Virus record (IMG/VR): IMGVR_UViG_2681813004_000022
Strand: one strand, 5' to 3'
Source: a virus
Taxonomy: Duplodnaviria > Heunggongvirae > Uroviricota > Caudoviricetes
DNA length: 38,772 bases
Shown: piece by piece, positions 7,212 through 27,328 of the stretch
How positions within the stretch are numbered: position 1 is the first letter of the stretch
Layout of the letters: every line of letters begins with the position of its first letter
Notes under the pieces: generated by a model
The model's database searches: none
The model's input: the letters and a program-made list of their open reading frames with translations, nothing else
Told to the model about the DNA's origin: nothing
Position numbers and translations under genes: made by a program

Positions 7212-7364
7212 TCACGCGGGTTAACAATTCGTGCTCTTAATAATACCAGGCATATCAGGCTGATGAACGTAAAAAAACGTTTTACATCAGTAAGATTATT
7301 ATATACTGTAAATATAAACAGTGGTTATATGTACAGTATTGCGTATGGTGTTATAGGAGGAAAG

Positions 7365-7553
7365 ATGCAGGACTATTTTTTGGAGTCTTTGAAGCTCCAG
7401 CGCATTGATTTTTTTCTTAAGCTTGTAGCGGCTAGTGAGTGTAGTGATGAAGAGAAGGGGCTAGCTCTGCAGTGGGTTTCTGAATTGACTGATGAGTTGA
7501 TGGCGAAAATTCGAAGCCATGAATACAGTAGGTCGATGGATGTAATCAGTTGA
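7365..7553 (+). CDS. Small acidic hypothetical protein (62 aa)
   Basis: AGGAGG RBS 5 nt before ATG 7365; followed by an intrinsic terminator. Function unknown. Confidence 0.4.
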   Translation: MQDYFLESLKLQRIDFFLKLVAASECSDEEKGLALQWVSELTDELMAKIRSHEYSRSMDVIS

Positions 7554-7585
7554 GCTTGTTTCGTTAGGACTTGATAAGGGAACCG

Positions 7586-7608
7586 AAAAGGGGCATTAAG
7601 CCCCTTTC
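7586..7608. terminator. Bidirectional intrinsic terminator between convergent genes
   Basis: GGGGC-ATTAA-GCCCC hairpin flanked by an A-run on the left and a T-run on the right. Confidence 0.5.
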
Positions 7609-7620
7609 TCATAAGTTGAT

Positions 7621-7920
7621 TTAGTTGTTACCCAAAGAGCCGGCCATGGCTGCATATTTAATTTCTTCGCTGGGTATTTCAGGATGTAGTTGAATTTGCC
7701 TGATGATATAGCCAGGAACTTCTTCACTCCACAGTTTCGCCGCGTCCTTACAGACCTTATACGCGAAGTCTCTATTCTCAAAGGCATAGGATTTTCCGTA
7801 TGCATATTGCTGACAGGCATGAACATAAGCTCCGAAGTCGCCGTCTTTATCTGGCAAAGCACATCCAGCTAAGGCTATGATGATTGCTACTAACGTAAAG
7901 GAGAAAGTTATACGTTTCAT
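7621..7920 (-). CDS. Small lipoprotein (99 aa), function unknown
   Basis: Signal peptide with lipobox LAGC (MKRITFSFTLVAIIIALAGC). Confidence 0.6.
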   Translation of the reverse strand: MKRITFSFTLVAIIIALAGCALPDKDGDFGAYVHACQQYAYGKSYAFENRDFAYKVCKDAAKLWSEEVPGYIIRQIQLHPEIPSEEIKYAAMAGSLGNN

Positions 7921-8028: not shown

Positions 8029-8835
8029 TTATTTAGAAAGGTACTTATCTCTAAGTTGATTCAGTCTGTCAGCATCGCGTTCTGAAAACTCGGCGTCACC
8101 ATAGATCGATTTCCCATCTGCGTCTTCAAGGCCAATGACTGTGACGGTAAATATAGCATCAGCCGGAACTTTAAGTTTTCCCCAATCAGAGTATCTATTA
8201 GGGGCTAATTTCCAGTTGGCTTTCTCACCTGGTTCCAGACCTCCAGAAATTTTATAGTTGAAGACGTCAGAGAACCAAGGGACGCTTCTTCCTGGGCTGG
8301 CAATAACTCCTTTGAAGAATACTCTGGCAACCGCTTTGTCTGTTTCGTTTTCAACGCTAATATCTAGAATTGGCTGATCATTGCCGTAATCCTCTTTCTG
8401 GAAATAAAAACGGGAACGTTCGACCTTGAAGGCTTTCATTTTTTCCGCAGCCTGTGTTGCAGAGGTTTGTTTGGCTTCCAGTTCTTTTATTTCTTGCAGA
8501 GCCTGTTCTTTCTCTCTCTTCTCACGCTCAAGGCGAATAGTTTGTGCGTAATTTATAACCTCATCACCAGTTTTACCTTCCAACGCTGACTTAATTTTTG
8601 TTTCGTAGACGTCCCCAGAAGACGTTCCAGCCTGCATTAGCTCTCTCATGTTGATTTGGCTAAAGGCAACGACTTTAACTGCATCATCAAACTGAGCTTT
8701 TTTATCTGCAGGTAAGGACTCTCTTACTTTTTGAATGGACTCTTTCATCGACTGATCGCTTGATGCATCGATCTTCGGTTTGTCACAAGCAGTAAGCAGC
8801 AGAGCAAAAGCAATTACGCCAGTTAATTTCTTCAT
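8029..8835 (-). CDS. Lipoprotein (about 268 aa), function unknown
   Basis: Probable start MKKLTGVIAFALLLTAC (lipobox LTAC) at 8835 with AGGGA RBS; the longer ORF-track start at 8907 would translate a hairpin/T-run. Confidence 0.6.
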   Translation of the reverse strand: MKKLTGVIAFALLLTACDKPKIDASSDQSMKESIQKVRESLPADKKAQFDDAVKVVAFSQINMRELMQAGTSSGDVYETKIKSALEGKTGDEVINYAQTIRLEREKREKEQALQEIKELEAKQTSATQAAEKMKAFKVERSRFYFQKEDYGNDQPILDISVENETDKAVARVFFKGVIASPGRSVPWFSDVFNYKISGGLEPGEKANWKLAPNRYSDWGKLKVPADAIFTVTVIGLEDADGKSIYGDAEFSERDADRLNQLRDKYLSK

Positions 8836-8852
8836 ATCCCTATCCCAATCGT

Positions 8853-8884
8853 AAAAAAACAAGGCTAATCCTAACAGGATTAGC
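8853..8884 (-). terminator. Terminator-like hairpin plus T7 run in the leader immediately 5' of the lipoprotein gene
   Basis: On the minus strand GCTAATCC-TGTTA-GGATTAGC followed by CTTG and TTTTTTT, ending about 18 nt before the ATG. Confidence 0.3.
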
Positions 8885-9357
8885 GGGCATGACAAACTCA
8901 TAGCCATATAGGTGTGCTGTATAAATTAGCGGGATGAGAAAGCCTGCACAGACCCTCATGTTGAAACTTGATTTTAGCTCAAAAGAGCTGACACTAAATA
9001 ACTGCGCGGAATAATGCTCCACTTTCGGTTAGCCCTTGGCCCTTGCTGGGTAAGGCGTGGGGCCGTTTTCTTCGCCTGATCCTGCTGTATCTGGCCTACA
9101 GTATGTTGTCCTTACGCGACATGCCACATGTCAGTAAACGGCAGGTGTAGCAGTATTAGACGCAGCTATTTAGTGTGTATTAAGCTGGCTCATATTTATG
9201 ACTGGTTTCAAGGTTTGACCGATTTTCATGTCATGCATGTCTATGCTGCATGAGTTCGCATGATCGTTTGAGGATCGGTTTGGCTAAGACATGCCAGAAC
9301 TGGCGGGCTTTTGCTCATGTCATGCAGGTGCATGAAAACTACTACATAAAGCGGGCA

Positions 9358-9376: not shown

Positions 9377-9523
9377 CGCGCGCAAGGTATAGAAACAGTC
9401 GTTTGTTTACAAACAGATACTATGATTTTCAATGTTCTTTCAAATTGTTGCTTTAAGATAGCAGGTAGATGTTTGTAGTTGTTGCGTGAACTGATAAGCT
9501 TCAACAACTATCGAGGAAAGGAT

Positions 9524-10591
9524 ATGAAGCGGCTAACTGAAGAACAAATTGAACATTCTTTGATCAGAGCAAGGAAGATTGCGAAGCGGGAGTCAAGAAA
9601 GCTTTCTGGTGGAAGACGGATGCTACAGCCCATGCGGGTATTCTCTCGTGTGAGAATACCCGCGCCTGCGTCATTGGACTTATTTAATACTAAAAATTAC
9701 AAACTATTTATAGAGTTTATCACTTTAATCAGAGATTACATCAATGATGGTGAGAAAATTTTAATAGATTTCAGAAATACAAAATCTCTGAAAGCATGTG
9801 CAGTAATCGTATTGTATGCACATATTGACTTTTTACAAAGGCAAACAAAAGATAAAAATATAATTTCTATTACTACGTGCGGTTCATCCAGGGCAAATAA
9901 CTGGTTTAAAATATGTGGTATTTGGGGGATTACAGGGTTTCAGCGTATAGCTGCAGATAAGCTTAATTCAATGGAAATTGTTTCCGCTGTTGCAGGCAAA
10001 ACTAGAGATGATCATGAAAGTGCCGAAGCAAGACAAAAAATTAAAAATATTCTACGTTATATAAAAGATACCATTTATGAAGGTAAGATTTCCGCTTCGG
10101 ATGGTGTGAAATTATATGCAGCCTTAACTGAATCTATTAGCAATGTTGGTCTACATGCGTATTCAAATGAAGAACAGTTCTCTGAATTTATTGAGGACAT
10201 TGGTAAAAGATGGTGGATATTGGCACACAAAGTCGAAGAACAACTATTTTTGATGGTGTATGATATGGGAGAAGGTATCCCAGTTACATTGGTTAAAAAA
10301 GACTTTTTCACATTTATCGCTCAGATATTTAATCCTAAGACGGATTCTGATAAAATATTCGCGGCTGTACAGTATGGTGAGACAAGAATGAATAGTCAGA
10401 AGCATGGTAAAGGATTACCTGATATGAAAAGGTATGTTGTAGATAACCCTGAGGGGCAGTTACATATTTTTAGTGGAATGGGACGATATTCTTATGATGC
10501 TGAAAATAATGTTGAAGATAAATTTGATCTGCCATACTCCATAGGTGGAACCCTTATTCAATGGAATGTAAGTTTGAGAGGTGCTGAATGA
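9524..10591 (+). CDS. GHKL-type (histidine-kinase-like) ATPase / putative Ser kinase, cargo gene 1
   Basis: Bergerat-fold motifs in order: N-box ESISNVGLHAY, G1 YDMGEGIP, G2 HGKGLPD. About 170 aa of N-terminal extension. GAGGAAAGG RBS before ATG 9524. AT-rich. Confidence 0.65.
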   Translation: MKRLTEEQIEHSLIRARKIAKRESRKLSGGRRMLQPMRVFSRVRIPAPASLDLFNTKNYKLFIEFITLIRDYINDGEKILIDFRNTKSLKACAVIVLYAHIDFLQRQTKDKNIISITTCGSSRANNWFKICGIWGITGFQRIAADKLNSMEIVSAVAGKTRDDHESAEARQKIKNILRYIKDTIYEGKISASDGVKLYAALTESISNVGLHAYSNEEQFSEFIEDIGKRWWILAHKVEEQLFLMVYDMGEGIPVTLVKKDFFTFIAQIFNPKTDSDKIFAAVQYGETRMNSQKHGKGLPDMKRYVVDNPEGQLHIFSGMGRYSYDAENNVEDKFDLPYSIGGTLIQWNVSLRGAE

Positions 10592-10908
10592 AAATCAAAG
10601 AGATACATGTTGCTGAAGATTTTTCAGATGTTCCCTATGGCCGCTATGATGAGGATGGTCCTGATAATGGACAACGTTTCCGTGAAAAGTATCTTTTGAA
10701 AGCCATCCAAGATTATGATGAGGTGCACGTGTACCTTGATGGTGCTATGGGTTATGGTTCTTCATTCTTGGAAGAGGCGTTTGGTGGACTTTATAGAACA
10801 AATAATATAGATAAAGCTATAATTAGGAAAAAATTAAAAATATTTACTGATTTGGATTTCCTCAAGGATAGTATATGGGGATATATTTCTGATGCTAAAA
10901 AGGAGTGA
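10588..10908 (+). CDS. Small STAS-like protein (anti-sigma-antagonist-like), cargo gene 2
   Basis: 106 aa; VHVYLDGAMGYGSSFLEEAFGGL resembles the STAS core, and I recall the DUF4325 STAS-like family having a conserved SFL motif. ATGA overlap with gene 1. Confidence 0.55.
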   Translation: MKIKEIHVAEDFSDVPYGRYDEDGPDNGQRFREKYLLKAIQDYDEVHVYLDGAMGYGSSFLEEAFGGLYRTNNIDKAIIRKKLKIFTDLDFLKDSIWGYISDAKKE

Positions 10909-11402
10909 TGTTCATGGATGAACTTCCGGTTTATCTGCGGTTATTACAATACCTTGCTAGTTCAGGTGTGATTGCAATTCTAACAGCCTTGATTGGTTGG
11001 GTTTTTGTTTATAGAAACTCCCGTGCGTTGCAAAAGAGGAGTGAAACATGGGCAATTGTAAAAAATGTTTCAGATAATTTAAAGGAAATTGAATCTGCAT
11101 CAAGAAAGTTTTGGATACCGGGAGATTCAAAAGAAATTGATGCAATGTCATTTCAAAATGAGATAACAGCACTTCTTGCGGAGACCGAGCGGTGGTTGAA
11201 TCATCTAAAACAACGCATTAATATCGAAGGTGACTATAAACCTTTGATTGCTGATTTATTCAAAGATGCTACATCTAATATTGAAAAAGCACAGGAGTAT
11301 GATAAAAGTCAAAGGACAAGAATTAGTGTATTAGTGTCAAAAAGGGCGAAAATAATTAAATCTCTAATTGATGAGTCTTATCAGAAAAAATTCTTAAAGT
11401 GA
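10905..11402 (+). CDS. Single-pass membrane protein with helical C-terminal domain, cargo gene 3
   Basis: 165 aa; hydrophobic helix LRLLQYLASSGVIAILTALIGWVFV near the N-terminus, charged helical remainder; start overlaps gene 2 stop. Confidence 0.6.
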   Translation: MMFMDELPVYLRLLQYLASSGVIAILTALIGWVFVYRNSRALQKRSETWAIVKNVSDNLKEIESASRKFWIPGDSKEIDAMSFQNEITALLAETERWLNHLKQRINIEGDYKPLIADLFKDATSNIEKAQEYDKSQRTRISVLVSKRAKIIKSLIDESYQKKFLK

Positions 11403-19396: not shown

Positions 19397-19790
19397 AGCG
19401 GTGCCTTATGTCCGCAATAACCCGGACAAACTGCATCTGTTTGTGGATAACGGTTCGCTGGTTGCCACGGGGGCCAGCTCCATGTCATGGGAGTACCGCT
19501 ACACCCTGAACGTGGTGATTGAGGATTTCAGCGGCGACCAGAATCTGCTGATGGCCCCGGTTTTGCTGTGGCTGCGGGATAACCAGCCCGATGCCATCAA
19601 TAACCCGGCGTTACGGGAAAAGCTATTCACCTTTGAGGTGGATATTCTGCGCAACGATGTCTGTGATATCAGCCTTAACCTGCAACTGACGGAGCGTGTG
19701 CTGGTCAGCACTGACGGCAGTGTGTCGAACGTTGAAGCGGTAGCGGAACCAGATGAACCTGAAGAAATGTGGACGGTGAAACGTGGCTGA
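19359..19790 (+). CDS. R: Tail completion protein R
   Basis: Likely GTG start at 19359 after AGGAG; ORF-track alternative start 19338. Confidence 0.75.
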   Translation: MNKPQSLRHALNKAVPYVRNNPDKLHLFVDNGSLVATGASSMSWEYRYTLNVVIEDFSGDQNLLMAPVLLWLRDNQPDAINNPALREKLFTFEVDILRNDVCDISLNLQLTERVLVSTDGSVSNVEAVAEPDEPEEMWTVKRG

Positions 19791-20226
19791 ACTGCAGAAG
19801 GTGGACGACTGGCTGAGTGCCTTACTGGCGAATCTGGAACCAGCCGCAAGAAGCCGCATGATGCGTCAGCTGGCGCAGGAACTGCGCAGGACACAACAGA
19901 AGAACATCAGGATGCAGCGCAATCCAGATGGCAGTAGTTATGAACCGCGACGGGTAACAGCACGCAGTAAAAAGGGGCGTATCAAACGTCAGATGTTTGC
20001 AAAGCTACGCACCACAAAATATCTGAAAACTGCCGCCAGCGCCGATTCTGCCAGCGTGCAGTTTGAAGGTAAGGTGCAGCGCATTGCCCGTGTTCACCAT
20101 TACGGCCTGCGCGATCGCGTCAGTCGCAAAGGGCCGGAGGTCCGTTACGCAGAGCGTCGCCTTTTGGGTGTTAACGACGAAGCGGAAATGATAACTCGTG
20201 ATATTTTTTTTCGCTACTTGTCTTAA
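19783..20226 (+). CDS. S: Tail completion protein S
   Basis: 147 aa (P2 S about 150); GTG start overlapping the R stop. Confidence 0.75.
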   Translation: MAELQKVDDWLSALLANLEPAARSRMMRQLAQELRRTQQKNIRMQRNPDGSSYEPRRVTARSKKGRIKRQMFAKLRTTKYLKTAASADSASVQFEGKVQRIARVHHYGLRDRVSRKGPEVRYAERRLLGVNDEAEMITRDIFFRYLS

Positions 20227-20244
20227 TTAACTACAGCATATGAT

Positions 20245-21006
20245 TTATATGGCTAAGTTATTCCTACATGTGGAGATAAAGTCACAGTAAAGCTGATGAA
20301 TTGTAGAACTCCACTCATTGGCTATTTTTATATTTTCCTTTGTTTGAGGTAGTAATTCCATCACCATAGCTCGATCTCTGTCAGTAAGCATGCTAAACAT
20401 ATAGTTATTGATATTGTGCGATTTATAAGCGAGAAAATAATTAAACTTTATTATTTCACTGTAAAGATGAGTGGCTTTATCTTCAATTTCATTGTCATGA
20501 AAATGTTGATCTGCATGACCCCACCCGTATTCAAGATTACTAATATCTTTTGTATTATTATCATGATAGGAGTTTTCAAAATTATGGTCTTTTAAGAATT
20601 CAATTGATAACGAGGTTGTTGGTAGAATATCAATAAATGCCTCATAAAGTTTAACGTCTGCTACTCTTTTTCTTTCCTGTATTTCTTTTTGGTTATTCTC
20701 TTTTAGAATTTCTTGGTATATATGGGGGACTTTTATTAATAGGTGAAAGACTAGCCCGGATAGAATTAAAGTTAAAGCAACCCCACTACTTGGTGTAATG
20801 CTATCAATCTTAAGAAGGCTTATTTCTGAATTAGTTGTTTTGTTGTAAAAATCAATTATAAGGTTTACGAATAATAAATATGTGGGTGCAGGTAGTGCAA
20901 GAATACCGATCCCTGCAGTGAGTAAAGTCCATGTTACCTTATTGCTAAATTCAGGAAATGCCTTTCTTATTAATTTTTTTATAAGAAGATTTAAATTGTC
21001 TTTCAT
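20245..21006 (-). CDS. AT-rich membrane protein of unknown function (moron between S and V)
   Basis: 253 aa, two N-terminal hydrophobic helices; opposite strand to the late genes; codon usage visibly AT-rich unlike the flanking phage genes. Confidence 0.6.
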   Translation of the reverse strand: MKDNLNLLIKKLIRKAFPEFSNKVTWTLLTAGIGILALPAPTYLLFVNLIIDFYNKTTNSEISLLKIDSITPSSGVALTLILSGLVFHLLIKVPHIYQEILKENNQKEIQERKRVADVKLYEAFIDILPTTSLSIEFLKDHNFENSYHDNNTKDISNLEYGWGHADQHFHDNEIEDKATHLYSEIIKFNYFLAYKSHNINNYMFSMLTDRDRAMVMELLPQTKENIKIANEWSSTIHQLYCDFISTCRNNLAI

Positions 21007-21034
21007 TTTATATCCTTAAAAGTAAGCAACGTAT

Positions 21035-21052
21035 TGTGCCATGAATCAAACA
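21035..21052. promoter_or_regulatory. TGT-N12-ACA dyad upstream of V (possible Ogr site)
   Basis: TGTGCCATGAATCAAACA about 55 bp upstream of the V start and about 30 bp upstream of the divergent moron start. Confidence 0.25.
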
Positions 21053-21098
21053 TTCCTATCTACTCGATTGCGTTTGCAATGGCGGTTAGTTTTTTCTC

Positions 21099-21677
21099 AT
21101 GAACGCACATTTAACCGAAATCATGCGCCTTATCACCAACCTGATTCGCACTGGTGTAGTCACCGAAGTGGACCGGGAGAACTGGCTTTGCCGGGTGAAA
21201 ACAGGCGACCTTGAAACCAACTGGATCAGCTGGCTGACGCTGCGTGCGGGTAATGCCCGCACATGGTGGAAACCATCGGAAGGTGAGCAGGTGGTGCTGC
21301 TGAGTCTGGGTGGCAATCTGGAAACCGCCTTTGCGTTGCCCGCTGTCTATTCGAATCAGTTCGCGCCGCCGTCGACGTCGGCGGACGCCTGCGTGACAGA
21401 ATATCCTGACGGTGGCTGGTTTGAATACGAACCCGCCACCGGGCGCTGGTATGTCAGGGGCATCAAATCAATGGTCATTGAGGCTGTCGACAACATCACC
21501 CTGAAAACCAGTGAGTTTGTACTGGAGGCTGACCGCGCACGTATTAACAGCGAAGTGGTGATCAATGGTGGCGTTACCCAGGGCGGCGGTGCGATGAGTT
21601 CTAACGGGATCGTGGTTGATGCGCATCAGCATACTGGCGTCCAGAAAGGTGGCGACACCACCGGAGGCCCGGTATGA
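21099..21677 (+). CDS. V: Baseplate spike/assembly protein V
   Basis: 192 aa; N-terminus resembles P2 gpV (..IRTG..TE.D......RV.TG); synteny. Confidence 0.85.
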   Translation: MNAHLTEIMRLITNLIRTGVVTEVDRENWLCRVKTGDLETNWISWLTLRAGNARTWWKPSEGEQVVLLSLGGNLETAFALPAVYSNQFAPPSTSADACVTEYPDGGWFEYEPATGRWYVRGIKSMVIEAVDNITLKTSEFVLEADRARINSEVVINGGVTQGGGAMSSNGIVVDAHQHTGVQKGGDTTGGPV

Positions 21678-24944: not shown

Positions 24945-25385
24945 ATGAATTACATATATTCCGCGACTACAAACTCTTTCTATCCGCTGGAGATGAAAGA
25001 GGATTACACTCAAGCTGACTCATGGCCAGATGATGCTGTTGAAGTTGATGAGCAAGTGTATATTGAGTTTTCCGGATTACCGCCGAAAGGAAAAATCCGT
25101 ATCGCTGGAGAAAATGGTTTTCCTGCATGGTCTGAAATTCCACCACCAACACATGAGGAACAGATTGCTGCAGCCGAACTGGAAAAGCAGCAACTGATTA
25201 ATCAGGCCAACGATTATATGAACAGTAAACAATGGCCTGGTAAAGCGGCTATTGGTCGTCTGAAAGGTGAGGAACTGGCGCAATATAATTTGTGGCTGGA
25301 TTATCTGGACGCACTGGAACTGGTCGATACTTCTGGTGCGCCAGATATTGAATGGCCTACGCCTCCGGCAGTTCAGGCCAGATGA
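24945..25385 (+). CDS. G: Tail fibre assembly chaperone (P2 gpG / Mu U-like)
   Basis: 146 aa with conserved C-terminal motif YNLWLDYLDALELVDTSGAPDIEWP. Confidence 0.8.
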   Translation: MNYIYSATTNSFYPLEMKEDYTQADSWPDDAVEVDEQVYIEFSGLPPKGKIRIAGENGFPAWSEIPPPTHEEQIAAAELEKQQLINQANDYMNSKQWPGKAAIGRLKGEELAQYNLWLDYLDALELVDTSGAPDIEWPTPPAVQAR

Positions 25386-25959
25386 CATCCGGCGCGGTGC
25401 TGGTATCAGTTGCCGTCACCGCGTCAATGTAATCCAGCGCAGCGTTAAGTCGGGCGGTTTCTGCCTGCGTCAGATTCCGTCCGGCCTGCAATTTCAGCTG
25501 AATCAGACTAATGGAAGCCATTGCAGTATCAATCAGTGACTGACGCTGTGCTTCTGCCGCGCCTACTGCGGCGCTATGCTGTGCCTCAGTATCTGTTACC
25601 CATTTCTCACCATCCCATTCATCGTATGGCGTTAACGGGGCGATAGTGGTTGTATTTTCAGGATAATCACCCGGAGCTGTGATTTCTTTCGATTCTCTCG
25701 TTTCGGTGTTATAGACGATTTCACCGCGATGGTCTGGTACATATTCCCATGAGTTAAAATCTGCAGAGCGGCAGATTGCATAACCAGCTTTGTAGGTGCC
25801 TGGAGCATCTAAACAGGAATATGCCGGAATGCCGACACCAACAGCAAGATATTCAGTTGAAGCTGAAATATACTCCCGACTCATGACGTCAAAGTTATAA
25901 ACAGTAATTTCTCCTGCCATAGTGGCAATTAATTCACTGTTTAATTCTGCGTTATTCAT
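25357..25959 (-). CDS. Alternate tail fibre assembly chaperone (U'-like)
   Basis: 200 aa, C-terminal LDYIDAVTATDTSTAPDVIWPELP motif; convergent with and overlapping G by about 29 bp. Confidence 0.75.
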   Translation of the reverse strand: MNNAELNSELIATMAGEITVYNFDVMSREYISASTEYLAVGVGIPAYSCLDAPGTYKAGYAICRSADFNSWEYVPDHRGEIVYNTETRESKEITAPGDYPENTTTIAPLTPYDEWDGEKWVTDTEAQHSAAVGAAEAQRQSLIDTAMASISLIQLKLQAGRNLTQAETARLNAALDYIDAVTATDTSTAPDVIWPELPEA

Positions 25960-26233
25960 TATGCAGCCCTCACAATATAGTTAAAAGCGACATTTCGTGG
26001 GCGTGTTTCATTCGCACCTGCAGGTTTAGTCGTTGCCGCAACAACACCACCCTCTGTAATAGCCGGGTTGGGAATTGGGTAATTATCGAAGTCAATGGCC
26101 GGAGACAGGGGCGTGATTTGTTTTAAAATCGTGGTGCCTGAAAAACTTCCCAGAGTCTGGTCGTTAGTTCGTGAAGTCCAGATTCCCCAATAGTGGTTAT
26201 GACTGACAATCGCACCGTCCTGAAGCGTTAATA

Positions 26234-26241
26234 ATCCCCTT
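26234..26241. repeat. 8-bp target-site duplication ATCCCCTT (left copy)
   Basis: Identical 8-mer directly abuts the outer IS26 inverted repeats at 26234-26241 and 27329-27336. Confidence 0.7.
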
Positions 26242-27061
26242 GGCACTGTTGCAAAGTTAGCGATGAGGCAGCCTTTTGTCTTATTCAAAGGCCTTACATT
26301 TCAAAAACTCTGCTTACCAGGCGCATTTCGCCCAGGGGATCACCATAATAAAATGCTGAGGCCTGGCCTTTGCGTAGTGCACGCATCACCTCAATACCTT
26401 TGATGGTGGCGTAAGCCGTCTTCATGGATTTAAATCCCAGCGTGGCGCCGATTATCCGTTTCAGTTTGCCATGATCGCATTCAATCACGTTGTTCCGGTA
26501 CTTAATCTGTCGGTGTTCAACGTCAGACGGGCACCGGCCTTCGCGTTTGAGCAGAGCAAGCGCGCGACCATAGGCGGGCGCTTTATCCGTGTTGATGAAT
26601 CGCGGGATCTGCCACTTCTTCACGTTGTTGAGGATTTTACCCAGAAACCGGTATGCAGCTTTGCTGTTACGACGGGAGGAGAGATAAAAATCGACAGTGC
26701 GGCCCCGGCTGTCGACGGCCCGGTACAGATACGCCCAGCGGCCATTGACCTTCACGTAGGTTTCATCCATGTGCCACGGGCAAAGATCGGAAGGGTTACG
26801 CCAGTACCAGCGCAGCCGTTTTTCCATTTCAGGCGCATAACGCTGAACCCAGCGGTAAATCGTGGAGTGATCGACATTCACTCCGCGTTCAGCCAGCATC
26901 TCCTGCAGCTCACGGTAACTGATGCCGTATTTGCAGTACCAGCGTACGGCCCACAGAATGATGTCACGCTGAAAATGCCGGCCTTTGAATGGGTTCATGT
27001 GCAGCTCCATCAGCAAAAGGGGATGATAAGTTTATCACCACCGACTATTTGCAACAGTGCC
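26242..27061 (-). mobile_element. IS26 (IS6 family), complete 820-bp copy
   Basis: 14-bp terminal inverted repeats GGCACTGTTGCAAA at 26242-26255 and (reverse complement) 27048-27061; 820 bp; encodes the 234-aa Tnp26 sequence I recognise. Confidence 0.9.
26294..26998 (-). CDS. tnpA: IS26 transposase Tnp26
   Basis: 234 aa starting MNPFKGRHFQRDIILWAVRWYCKYGISYRELQEM..., DDE transposase of IS26. Confidence 0.9.
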   Translation of the reverse strand: MNPFKGRHFQRDIILWAVRWYCKYGISYRELQEMLAERGVNVDHSTIYRWVQRYAPEMEKRLRWYWRNPSDLCPWHMDETYVKVNGRWAYLYRAVDSRGRTVDFYLSSRRNSKAAYRFLGKILNNVKKWQIPRFINTDKAPAYGRALALLKREGRCPSDVEHRQIKYRNNVIECDHGKLKRIIGATLGFKSMKTAYATIKGIEVMRALRKGQASAFYYGDPLGEMRLVSRVFEM

Positions 27062-27328
27062 GTTACGCCAGTACCAGCGCAGCCGTTTTTCCATTTCAGG
27101 CGCATAACGCTGAACCCAGCGGTAAATCGTGGAGTGATCGACATTCACTCCGCGTTCAGCCAGCATCTCCTGCAGCTCACGGTAACTGATGCCGTATTTG
27201 CAGTACCAGCGTACGGCCCACAGAATGATGTCACGCTGAAAATGCCGGCCTTTGAATGGGTTCATGTGCAGCTCCATCAGCAAAAGGGGATGATAAGTTT
27301 ATCACCACCGACTATTTGCAACAGTGCC
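27062..27328 (-). mobile_element. Partial IS26 copy (267 bp, tnp-proximal end with terminal IR), tandem to the complete copy
   Basis: Sequence equals 26795-27061 of the complete copy and ends in the same terminal IR at 27315-27328; encodes only the first about 67 aa of Tnp26. Confidence 0.8.

What the first reader, a model, noticed from the sequence alone, without database searches (positions are those of the whole stretch)
20245..21006. AT-rich membrane-protein moron inserted between tail genes S and V on the opposite strand
The 253-aa protein has two N-terminal hydrophobic helices and an Asn/Lys/Ile-rich composition that contrasts with the GC-rich late genes, which points to horizontal acquisition. 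It interrupts the late region in antisense orientation, as expected for a lysogeny-expressed moron such as an Abi or exclusion factor.
Basis: partly seen in the sequence, partly recalled or inferred. Interest (0 to 1): 0.55.

Follow-up and report, generated by a model that had tools for sequence, protein, structure and literature searches.

The report
Swappable candidate defence gene in P2-like prophage
A foreign, AT-rich gene for an uncharacterised inner-membrane protein sits backwards between two tail operons of a P2-like E. coli prophage, at a known gene-swapping site where relatives carry anti-phage systems, so it is probably an untested defence gene.

Summary
ORF 20245-21006 (-) encodes 253 aa with two N-terminal transmembrane helices. 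It has the lowest GC in the window (0.31 against about 0.55 in the flanks; GC3 0.26). It lies antisense between tail gene S and baseplate gene V.

It is cargo at the P2 "orf30" locus, the gap between the PO and PV late operons. Of 78 close relatives, about 51 have an empty 68-bp gap. About 27 carry one of at least 11 unrelated AT-rich cargo types, nearly all antisense. These include PARIS (AriA/AriB), a fused AriAB-like protein and an AbiU-like protein. Each cassette brings its own S tail and its own PV promoter box.

The protein has no Pfam, NCBIfam, PHROG, PADLOC or PDB match, but it is under purifying selection (dN/dS about 0.18).

It has two modules. The first is a conserved FPEFSNKVTW motif plus a 2TM hairpin. 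The second is a C-terminal helical-bundle domain (pLDDT 97.5) found in at least 931 protein clusters. That domain always sits at the C-terminus, behind TM helices or occasionally TIR, Schlafen or HNH domains.

Best reading, not demonstrated: a single-gene abortive-infection or exclusion protein, with a sensor domain controlling a membrane effector. Expression and phenotype are untested.

The parts
20245..21006 (-). Cargo gene: 253-aa two-module inner-membrane protein (stop codon 20245-20247)
   Evidence: ORF list. A family of 31 clusters at 45-99% identity, all annotated 'hypothetical'. dN/dS about 0.18. GC 0.31.
20923..21006 (-). aa 1-28: basic N-terminal helix plus the invariant FPEFSNKVTW motif (aa 17-26)
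   Evidence: Invariant columns in alignment A1. 6 K+R against 2 D+E. The motif recurs as FP[DE]FSNKxTW in remote relatives, some with different C-termini.
20866..20922 (-). TM helix 1 (aa 29-47)
   Evidence: Kyte-Doolittle peak 1.77. Helix in the AF2 model.
20728..20784 (-). TM helix 2 (aa 75-93). It continues as one long helix (aa 74-127) into the C-terminal domain
   Evidence: Kyte-Doolittle peak 2.08. AF2 helix H74-127.
20248..20658 (-). C-module (aa 117-253): cytoplasmic up-down helical bundle with a small beta hairpin; an unannotated domain family
   Evidence: AF2 domain model with pLDDT 97.5 and pTM 0.90. At least 931 representative clusters match the profile. The domain is always C-terminal, behind TM, TIR, SLFN or HNH N-termini. 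No specific structural neighbour was found.
21013..21017 (-). Shine-Dalgarno AAGGA, 6 nt upstream of the ATG
   Evidence: Read from the sequence. AAGGA is kept in four of the five homologous loci compared.
21035..21052 (+). TGT-N12-ACA box (TGTGCCATGAATCAAACA) of the PV late promoter, retained between the cargo gene and V
   Evidence: Read from the sequence. The box is conserved in empty and occupied sites alike. The consensus for P2 late promoters is given in PMC3931495. The activator site is annotated at the equivalent place in P2.
20175..20226 (+). Cassette-specific, AT-rich re-coded 3' end of S (last ~17 codons). The left junction of the cassette lies inside S
   Evidence: Alignment to the empty-site phage 500465-1. 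Every cargo type has its own S tail, with GC 0.30-0.48 against 0.57 in empty sites.
19783..20226 (+). Gene S (tail completion), last gene of the PO late operon
   Evidence: PHROG 26. Pfam Phage_tail_S in homologous loci. Operon structure from PMC3931495.
21099..21677 (+). Gene V (baseplate spike/assembly), first gene of the PV late operon
   Evidence: PHROG hits. Pfam Phage_base_V in homologous loci. RefSeq annotation.

Best explanation
The ORF is the single-gene cargo of a swappable cassette at the P2 'orf30' locus. This locus is the gap between the last gene of the PO late operon (S) and the first gene of the PV late operon (V) in a 186/P2-like E. coli prophage.

Shown: the cassette runs from about 20175 to 21098. 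It consists of a re-coded S 3' end, the antisense cargo gene and its own copy of the Ogr-dependent PV promoter. Such cassettes are exchanged between P2-like phages, apparently by recombination within the conserved S and V coding sequences.

Inferred: the product is an inner-membrane protein with both ends in the cytoplasm. Its conserved N-module (basic helix, FPEFSNKVTW motif, 2TM hairpin) is the effector. Its faster-evolving C-terminal helical-bundle domain is a sensor or regulator, joined to TM2 by one continuous helix. On sensing a cue from an infecting phage, the C-module would switch the TM module, probably through oligomerisation, into a state that depolarises or permeabilises the membrane. 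That would abort or exclude the infection and so protect the lysogen population and the resident prophage. The antisense position means late read-through transcription from PO would oppose cargo expression during the prophage's own lytic growth.
For: Cassette and hotspot:
- Closest phages have S and V 68 bp apart.
- Of 78 IMG/VR relatives with V at least 94% identical, about 51 are empty. About 27 carry inserts of 550-2232 bp, all with GC 0.31-0.35.
- At least 11 mutually unrelated cargo families occupy the site, nearly all antisense.
- Each cassette has its own S tail and its own TGT-N12-ACA box.
- P2 Orf30 is at the same place, between an annotated O-operon terminator and the PV activator site.
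- The literature names this locus as a horizontally acquired variable region.

Defence association:
- Cargo in relatives includes AriA+AriB (PARIS), a fused AriAB-like protein and an AbiU-like protein.
- A 34%-identical homologue lies between A and Q, the main P2 defence hotspot, in a divergent P2-like phage. The hotspot is defined in PMC9122126 and PMC13586616.
- The homologue is retained in a degraded Erwinia prophage.

Module logic:
- The C-module occurs in at least 931 representative clusters.
- Among the top 150, 107 have TM helices before it. Others have TIR_2 or CAP12/Pycsar-type TIR, Schlafen AlbA_2 or HNH. It is never followed by more than 29 residues.
- No residue pattern typical of an enzyme is conserved across the wide family; only D117, W162 and F169 reach 90% or more.
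- The N-module is more conserved than the C-module (67.5% against 52% mean pairwise identity).
- The charge distribution fits an N-in/C-in topology.
- AF2 predicts a continuous helix 74-127.

Real gene: dN/dS about 0.18.
Against: - No experiment or expression data were available. The scan found no sigma-70 consensus promoter upstream and no terminator.
- No hit in PADLOC.
- TIR, SLFN and HNH fusions are only about 7 of 142 relatives scanned.
- The TM segments could be mere anchors.
- Several other cargo types at this site are also unknown, and hotspots carry non-defence cargo too. One example is the Y-family polymerase in L101.
- The gene is split by IS1 in two ETEC genomes, which shows it is dispensable.
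Confidence: 0.45

Rival explanations
1. Superinfection-exclusion protein. The membrane protein blocks DNA entry or receptor function of incoming phages at the inner membrane, without killing the cell. The C-module binds a host or phage injection component rather than acting as a switch.
For: The protein is in the inner membrane with a 2TM topology. It is prophage cargo at a site shared with defence genes. It is a single gene with no partner. P2 Orf30 and several other cargo proteins at this site are also TM proteins.
Against: The same C-module is fused to cytoplasmic toxic enzyme domains (TIR, HNH, Schlafen) in relatives. That fits a switch controlling an effector better than an entry block. 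The periplasmic loop is short, at 27 aa.
Confidence: 0.2
2. Orphan effector of a nucleotide-signalling immune system (CBASS, Pycsar or Thoeris-like). The C-module binds a small-molecule second messenger made by a synthase encoded elsewhere in the host.
For: The N-terminal partners of the C-module (2TM, CAP12/Pycsar-type TIR, HNH) are the same set used by CBASS and Pycsar effectors.
Against: No cyclase or other partner gene lies in the cassette or next to any relative examined. The C-module has no similarity to cNMP-binding, SAVED, STING or SLOG models in Pfam or PADLOC. A single-gene cassette that moves between genera would rarely meet its synthase.
Confidence: 0.1
3. Not a defence gene. It could be a lysogenic-conversion or phage-accessory membrane protein, for example one that alters the envelope or tunes lysis or assembly. 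It could also be a neutral, H-NS-silenced passenger maintained by hitch-hiking.
For: No promoter was detected. The AT-richness is extreme and typical of silenced foreign DNA. The gene is dispensable, as shown by empty sites and the IS1 disruption. Hotspots also hold non-defence cargo.
Against: Purifying selection acts across genera. The gene is retained in a decayed prophage. Its site-mates are defence systems. The phage has a complete lysis cassette of its own elsewhere. The antisense orientation argues against a late lytic role.
Confidence: 0.2

Closest known systems
Phage P2 Orf30 (NP_046770, non-essential) and the 'orf30 region' of P2-like phages
   Same: Identical genomic site (between S and V), antisense orientation, AT-rich, about 260 aa, hydrophobic segments, non-essential, flanked by the PV activator site. 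The literature recognises it as a variable, horizontally acquired locus (PMC3091744).
   Different: No detectable homology: tblastn found nothing and the hhalign probability is 0.35%. Orf30 has a different TM layout and lacks both modules.
P2/P4 defence hotspots (old/tin between A and Q; Z/fun) - Rousset et al. 2022, PMC9122126; PMC13586616
   Same: Conserved flanking core genes, highly variable AT-rich cargo, known defence systems among the cargo, and rapid swapping without linkage to the core genes. Here the cargo is 47% identical between phages whose S and V are 96-98% identical.
   Different: A different location. The S-V site is not one of the two classical hotspots. In PMC13586616 it is only lumped under 'within the tail genes / downstream of GpL'. 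The site is empty in most close relatives, whereas no P2 had both main hotspots gene-free.
TM effectors of signalling defence systems (Pycsar PycTM; CBASS 2TM-SAVED Cap14, Cap15; TM-STING) - from my own knowledge of these families
   Same: The architecture has an N-terminal TM effector and a C-terminal regulatory domain. The C-terminal domain is shared with TIR and HNH versions.
   Different: No synthase partner. The C-module is an unrelated all-helical bundle, not a CNB, SAVED or STING domain. No PADLOC effector model matches it.
Csx28 (Cas13b accessory membrane pore, PDB 8gi1)

Membership tests
P2 'orf30-locus' moron cassette | Lies between tail gene S and baseplate gene V, at the PO/PV operon boundary | tested here: met
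   Operon structure from PMC3931495.
P2 'orf30-locus' moron cassette | Present or absent, or replaced by unrelated genes, in otherwise near-identical phages | tested here: met
   About 51 empty and about 27 occupied sites, with at least 11 unrelated cargo families.
P2 'orf30-locus' moron cassette | Deviant (AT-rich) composition and codon usage | tested here: met
   GC 0.31, GC3 0.26, CAI 0.45.
P2 Orf30 protein family | Sequence homology to P2 Orf30 | tested here: not met
   No tblastn hit. hhalign probability 0.35%.
Pycsar/CBASS-type TM effector | Adjacent nucleotide cyclase or oligonucleotide synthase gene | tested here: not met
   Single-gene cassette with no such neighbour in any locus examined.
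Pycsar/CBASS-type TM effector | Recognised ligand-binding domain (cNMP-binding, SAVED, STING) | tested here: not met
   No Pfam or PADLOC hit to the C-module in the query or in 142 relatives.
Pycsar/CBASS-type TM effector | N-terminal TM helices followed by a C-terminal cytoplasmic domain | tested here: met
HEPN-domain Abi proteins | Conserved Rx4-6H motif in a four-helix bundle | tested here: not met
   A helical bundle is present. No conserved R-x4-6-H exists: the only positions conserved at 90% or more in the wide family are D117, W162 and F169. There is no Pfam HEPN hit.
Any defence family modelled in PADLOC v2.0.0 | Significant match to a PADLOC HMM | tested here: not met
   0 families at E<=1. 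In relatives only the N-terminal TIR, SLFN and HNH parts match.
Abortive-infection / exclusion protein (functional class) | Reduces plating of phages when expressed; expressed in the lysogen | not testable with these tools
   Requires cloning with a phage challenge, and RNA-seq.
Virion structural / essential late gene | Conserved in all relatives and co-oriented with the late operons | tested here: not met
   Absent from about 65% of close relatives, antisense, and disrupted by IS1 in two genomes.

The most novel reading that the evidence does not exclude
The C-terminal helical-bundle module (aa 117-253) defines a large domain family of at least 931 clusters at 50% identity. It is absent from Pfam, NCBIfam, PHROGs, PADLOC and the PDB. 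It may be a previously undescribed phage-sensing or regulatory domain of single-protein immune effectors. It is always C-terminal and is combined with interchangeable killing modules: a conserved FP[DE]FSNKxTW 2TM hairpin, other TM helices, CAP12-type TIR, Schlafen or HNH. The P2 S-V junction may be a third, so far unexploited reservoir of such systems.
Probability: 0.3. Interest if true: 0.7.

Novelty: new member of a known kind. Interest (0 to 1): 0.45.

Why it matters
If the prediction holds, it adds a new single-gene anti-phage system and a widespread new sensor-like domain to the bacterial immunity catalogue. It would also show that the S-V (orf30) junction of P2-like phages is a usable discovery site alongside the A-Q and Z/fun hotspots. 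At least six further cargo families at this site are uncharacterised. The cassette anatomy is a clear example of how cargo can be swapped inside a late region without breaking late gene expression: each cargo travels with its own S tail and PV promoter. If the prediction fails, the finding remains an ordinary moron at a known variable locus.

Tried and rejected
1. Direct family assignment. Pfam, NCBIfam, PHROGs, PADLOC and PDB sequence searches of the protein gave nothing. A profile search against the PDB gave only noise.
3. Homology to P2 Orf30 or to the Cartapus cargo was rejected, as was homology to any other S-V cargo.
4. A signalling partner such as a cyclase next to relatives was not found.
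5. Promoter and terminator. The consensus scan found no sigma-70 promoter upstream of the ORF and no terminator. On the minus strand I noticed TGGCAC-N6-TTGC (about 21040-21025), which resembles a sigma-54 promoter. The spacing is one base too long, and the string is simply the reverse of the Ogr box region, so I treat it as chance.
6. A wide-family scan of species genomes failed for lack of conserved stretches. The close-family scan found only three species.
7. L009 looked like a chimeric or frameshifted allele. It also has altered homopolymer runs in the S tail and upstream of V, so sequencing error is the likelier cause.

Full report
**1. Observation**

The ORF at 20245-21006 (minus strand, ATG start, 253 aa) exists as described.

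- Position. It lies between S (19783-20226, +; PHROG 26 tail completion) and V (21099-21677, +; baseplate spike/assembly).
- Composition. GC falls from about 0.55-0.58 to 0.30-0.32 across the ORF. The gene has GC 0.312 and GC3 0.264. Eight late genes have GC 0.52-0.57 and GC3 0.49-0.69. CAI relative to those late genes is 0.45 against 0.65-0.79. This is the lowest-GC 762-nt stretch in the window (mean 0.508, sd 0.067).
- Protein. It is rich in L, I, N and K and has two hydrophobic helices, at aa 29-47 and 75-93.
- Not a chance ORF. At this composition about 8% of random codons are stops, so 253 open codons are expected with probability of about 1e-9 (my arithmetic). Homologues at 45-99% identity share 39 invariant positions. 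dN/dS is about 0.18 where dS is not saturated. AAGGA sits 6 nt before the ATG.

**2. Genomic setting**

The window is a 186/P2-like prophage of E. coli next to ybjL. It has integrase, CI, CII, A, Q, P, O, N, M, L, lysis genes, R, S, V, W, J, I, H, tail genes, D and ogr.

The identical 901 bp occurs in 12 of 5426 complete E. coli genomes, always in this context. In two ETEC genomes IS1 splits the ORF.

The nearest sequenced phages (Escherichia phage 500465-1, Klebsiella phage 4LV2017 and others) match both flanks at about 94% but lack the insert. In them S and V are 68 bp apart. Phage Cartapus carries a different antisense ORF at the same place. P2 itself carries the non-essential antisense Orf30 there, between an annotated O-operon terminator and the PV activator-binding site.

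P2 late genes are transcribed from PP, PO, PV and PF. Each promoter has a TGT-N12-ACA box. PO covers genes up to S, and PV covers V, W, J, I, H and G (PMC3931495). The insert therefore sits exactly at an operon boundary. The orf30 region is already listed as one of three regions of P2-like phages that hold horizontally acquired genes (PMC3091744).

**3. The site is a cargo hotspot with defence genes**

I fetched 80 IMG/VR loci whose V protein is at least 94% identical and measured the S-V interval.

- Of 78 loci containing both genes, about 51 have the empty 68-bp gap (GC 0.50).
- About 27 have inserts of 550-2232 bp, all with GC 0.31-0.35.
- The cargo falls into at least 11 mutually unrelated protein families.
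- All are antisense except one 503-aa gene.
- PADLOC recognises AriA+AriB (PARIS) in L034/L035, a fused AriAB-like 598-aa protein in L051, and an AbiU-like 566-aa protein in L026/L033.
- The rest are unknown: 146, 176/189, 268, 304, 314, 393 and 503 aa.

Each cargo type comes with its own AT-rich re-coded version of the last ~20 codons of S. Each also has its own PV promoter segment that keeps the TGT-N12-ACA box (alignment). In the window the box is TGTGCCATGAATCAAACA at 21035-21052. The exchangeable unit is therefore [S tail + antisense cargo + PV promoter], bounded by conserved S and V coding sequence. This points to exchange by homologous recombination in the flanks (inference).

Cargo and core are unlinked. 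L069 has S 97.5% and V 95.8% identical to the window, but its allele of this gene is only 47% identical.

**4. The protein family**

A search of 5.8 billion proteins found 31 clusters (45-99% identity). All are from Enterobacterales, including Escherichia, Salmonella, Klebsiella, Enterobacter, Citrobacter, Raoultella, Lonsdalea and Erwinia. All are annotated 'hypothetical'. Pseudescherichia and Buttiauxella were added.

Wherever context could be read, the gene is antisense between S and V of a P2-like prophage. In Erwinia billingiae it survives beside V in a decayed prophage. In L006/L007 a second 222-aa TM gene lies upstream on the same strand. All alleles are AT-rich, with GC 0.30-0.35.

**5. 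Two modules**

An exhaustive profile search of 1.84 billion representatives gave 931 hits at E<=1e-3. Most of the more distant hits among the 150 listed match only profile positions ~105-254, which is the C-terminal domain.

Among the best 150 hits:
- 107 have one or more TM helices before the C-module.
- 14 are essentially the domain alone.
- 25 have non-TM N-termini.
- 4 have only the N-module.
- The domain is never followed by more than 29 residues.

The non-TM N-termini include TIR_2 (P0117), CAP12/Pycsar-type TIR (P0153, P0168, P0174), Schlafen AlbA_2 (P0087) and HNH (P0151). PADLOC models match only those N-terminal parts, never the shared domain.

Conversely, the N-module (FP[DE]FSNKxTW plus a 2TM hairpin) also occurs with other C-termini. 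Examples are P0158, P0163 and a Methylophaga protein next to a RES-domain gene.

No cyclase or other constant partner gene was seen.

In a divergent P2-like phage (L101) a 34%-identical full-length relative lies between A and Q, the principal P2 defence hotspot.

**6. Structure**

- The full-length AF2 model is confident only for the C-terminal half.
- A domain-only model built with 150 sequences is excellent: pLDDT 97.5, pTM 0.90. It shows an up-down bundle of four long helices with two short helices and a beta hairpin.
- TM2 and the first bundle helix form one continuous helix, aa 74-127.
- Across the wide family only D117, W162 and F169 are conserved at 90% or more. This does not look like a catalytic site.
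- The charge distribution (6 K+R before TM1, 6 K+R after TM2) fits an N-in/C-in topology. That agrees with the cytoplasmic nature of the TIR, HNH and SLFN partners.
- Within the close family the N-module is more conserved than the C-module: 67.5% against 52% mean pairwise identity.

**7. Interpretation**

Shown:
- This is a horizontally acquired, non-structural cassette at the known orf30 locus.
- It is a real, selected gene for a two-module inner-membrane protein.
- The locus carries known defence systems in relatives.
- The C-module is a large unannotated family combined with defence-type effector domains.

Inferred: the protein is a single-gene abortive-infection or exclusion factor. In this reading the C-module senses infection and switches the TM module into a membrane-damaging state.

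Rivals:
- A non-lethal entry block.
- An orphan effector of a signalling system.
- A non-defence or silent passenger.

Open point: no sigma-70 consensus promoter or terminator was detected, so when the gene is expressed remains unknown. The antisense placement would let PO read-through oppose its expression during the prophage's own late phase (inference).

**8. Novelty**

The site and the 'moron' nature are already known (P2 orf30; PMC3091744). Defence hotspots in P2 are well known, but the published ones are A-Q and Z/fun (PMC9122126; bioRxiv 2024.10.15.618418). PMC13586616 mentions defence systems 'within the tail genes / downstream of GpL' without resolving this junction.

The protein family and its C-terminal domain are uncharacterised in every library searched. 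I therefore class this as a new member of a known kind (prophage hotspot cargo, a candidate single-protein effector-sensor defence). It has moderate interest and a clear experimental test.

Noticed in passing
window 9479-11402 (+), with 8029-8907 (-) and 7263-7920: A second AT-rich island (GC 0.33-0.40) lies in the classical A-Q defence hotspot. It holds three co-oriented, overlapping genes of 370 aa, 106 aa (annotated STAS-like) and 165 aa. Nearby are a DUF6694 lipoprotein and two small ORFs. None hit PADLOC, so this may be an uncharacterised three-gene defence candidate.
   Followed up: partly
window 21035-21099: The PV TGT-N12-ACA box is centred about 55 nt before the V ATG, and no Shine-Dalgarno precedes that ATG. 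The P2 record likewise annotates the V-operon transcription start at the first base of V. V may therefore be translated from a leaderless mRNA, or its start may be mis-set.
   Followed up: no
L034/L035 (S-V interval, 2.2 kb), L051, L026/L033: Close relatives carry PARIS (AriA 418 aa + AriB 285 aa), a fused AriAB-like 598-aa protein, or an AbiU-like 566-aa protein at the S-V junction. The hotspot descriptions I read do not name this junction as a separate defence hotspot.
   Followed up: yes
L017/L071 (304 aa) and L023/L027/L075 (393 aa) S-V cargo: Both unknown cargo proteins contain R-x4-H strings (RHSLFH and RDKIAH) near their C-termini, reminiscent of HEPN motifs. I only read this from the sequence.
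   Followed up: no
L006/L007 5257-5925: In one lineage the homologue is preceded on the same strand by an extra 222-aa TM protein with no convincing Pfam or PADLOC hit. This is either a two-gene variant of the cassette or two stacked cargos.
   Followed up: partly
L099 (E. coli ETEC4089; also ETEC1702): An IS1B element splits the ORF into 192-aa and 75-aa pieces in two pig ETEC genomes.
   Followed up: yes
L101 1180-7327: A divergent P2-like phage carries a 34%-identical relative of this gene in its A-Q hotspot. The same hotspot also holds a Y-family (DinB/UmuC-like) DNA polymerase gene and several unknown ORFs.
   Followed up: partly
window ~25357-27100: Oppositely oriented tail-fibre and tail-fibre-assembly genes lie next to a recombinase-family gene (RefSeq annotation of the equivalent prophage). 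This suggests a Gin/Cin-type invertible host-range segment.
   Followed up: no
L009 (IMG/VR 2744054627_000015): This copy of the cassette shows frame disruptions in the cargo ORF, in the S tail and in a T-run upstream of V. All appear to be at homopolymer runs, so sequencing error is more likely than true decay.
   Followed up: partly
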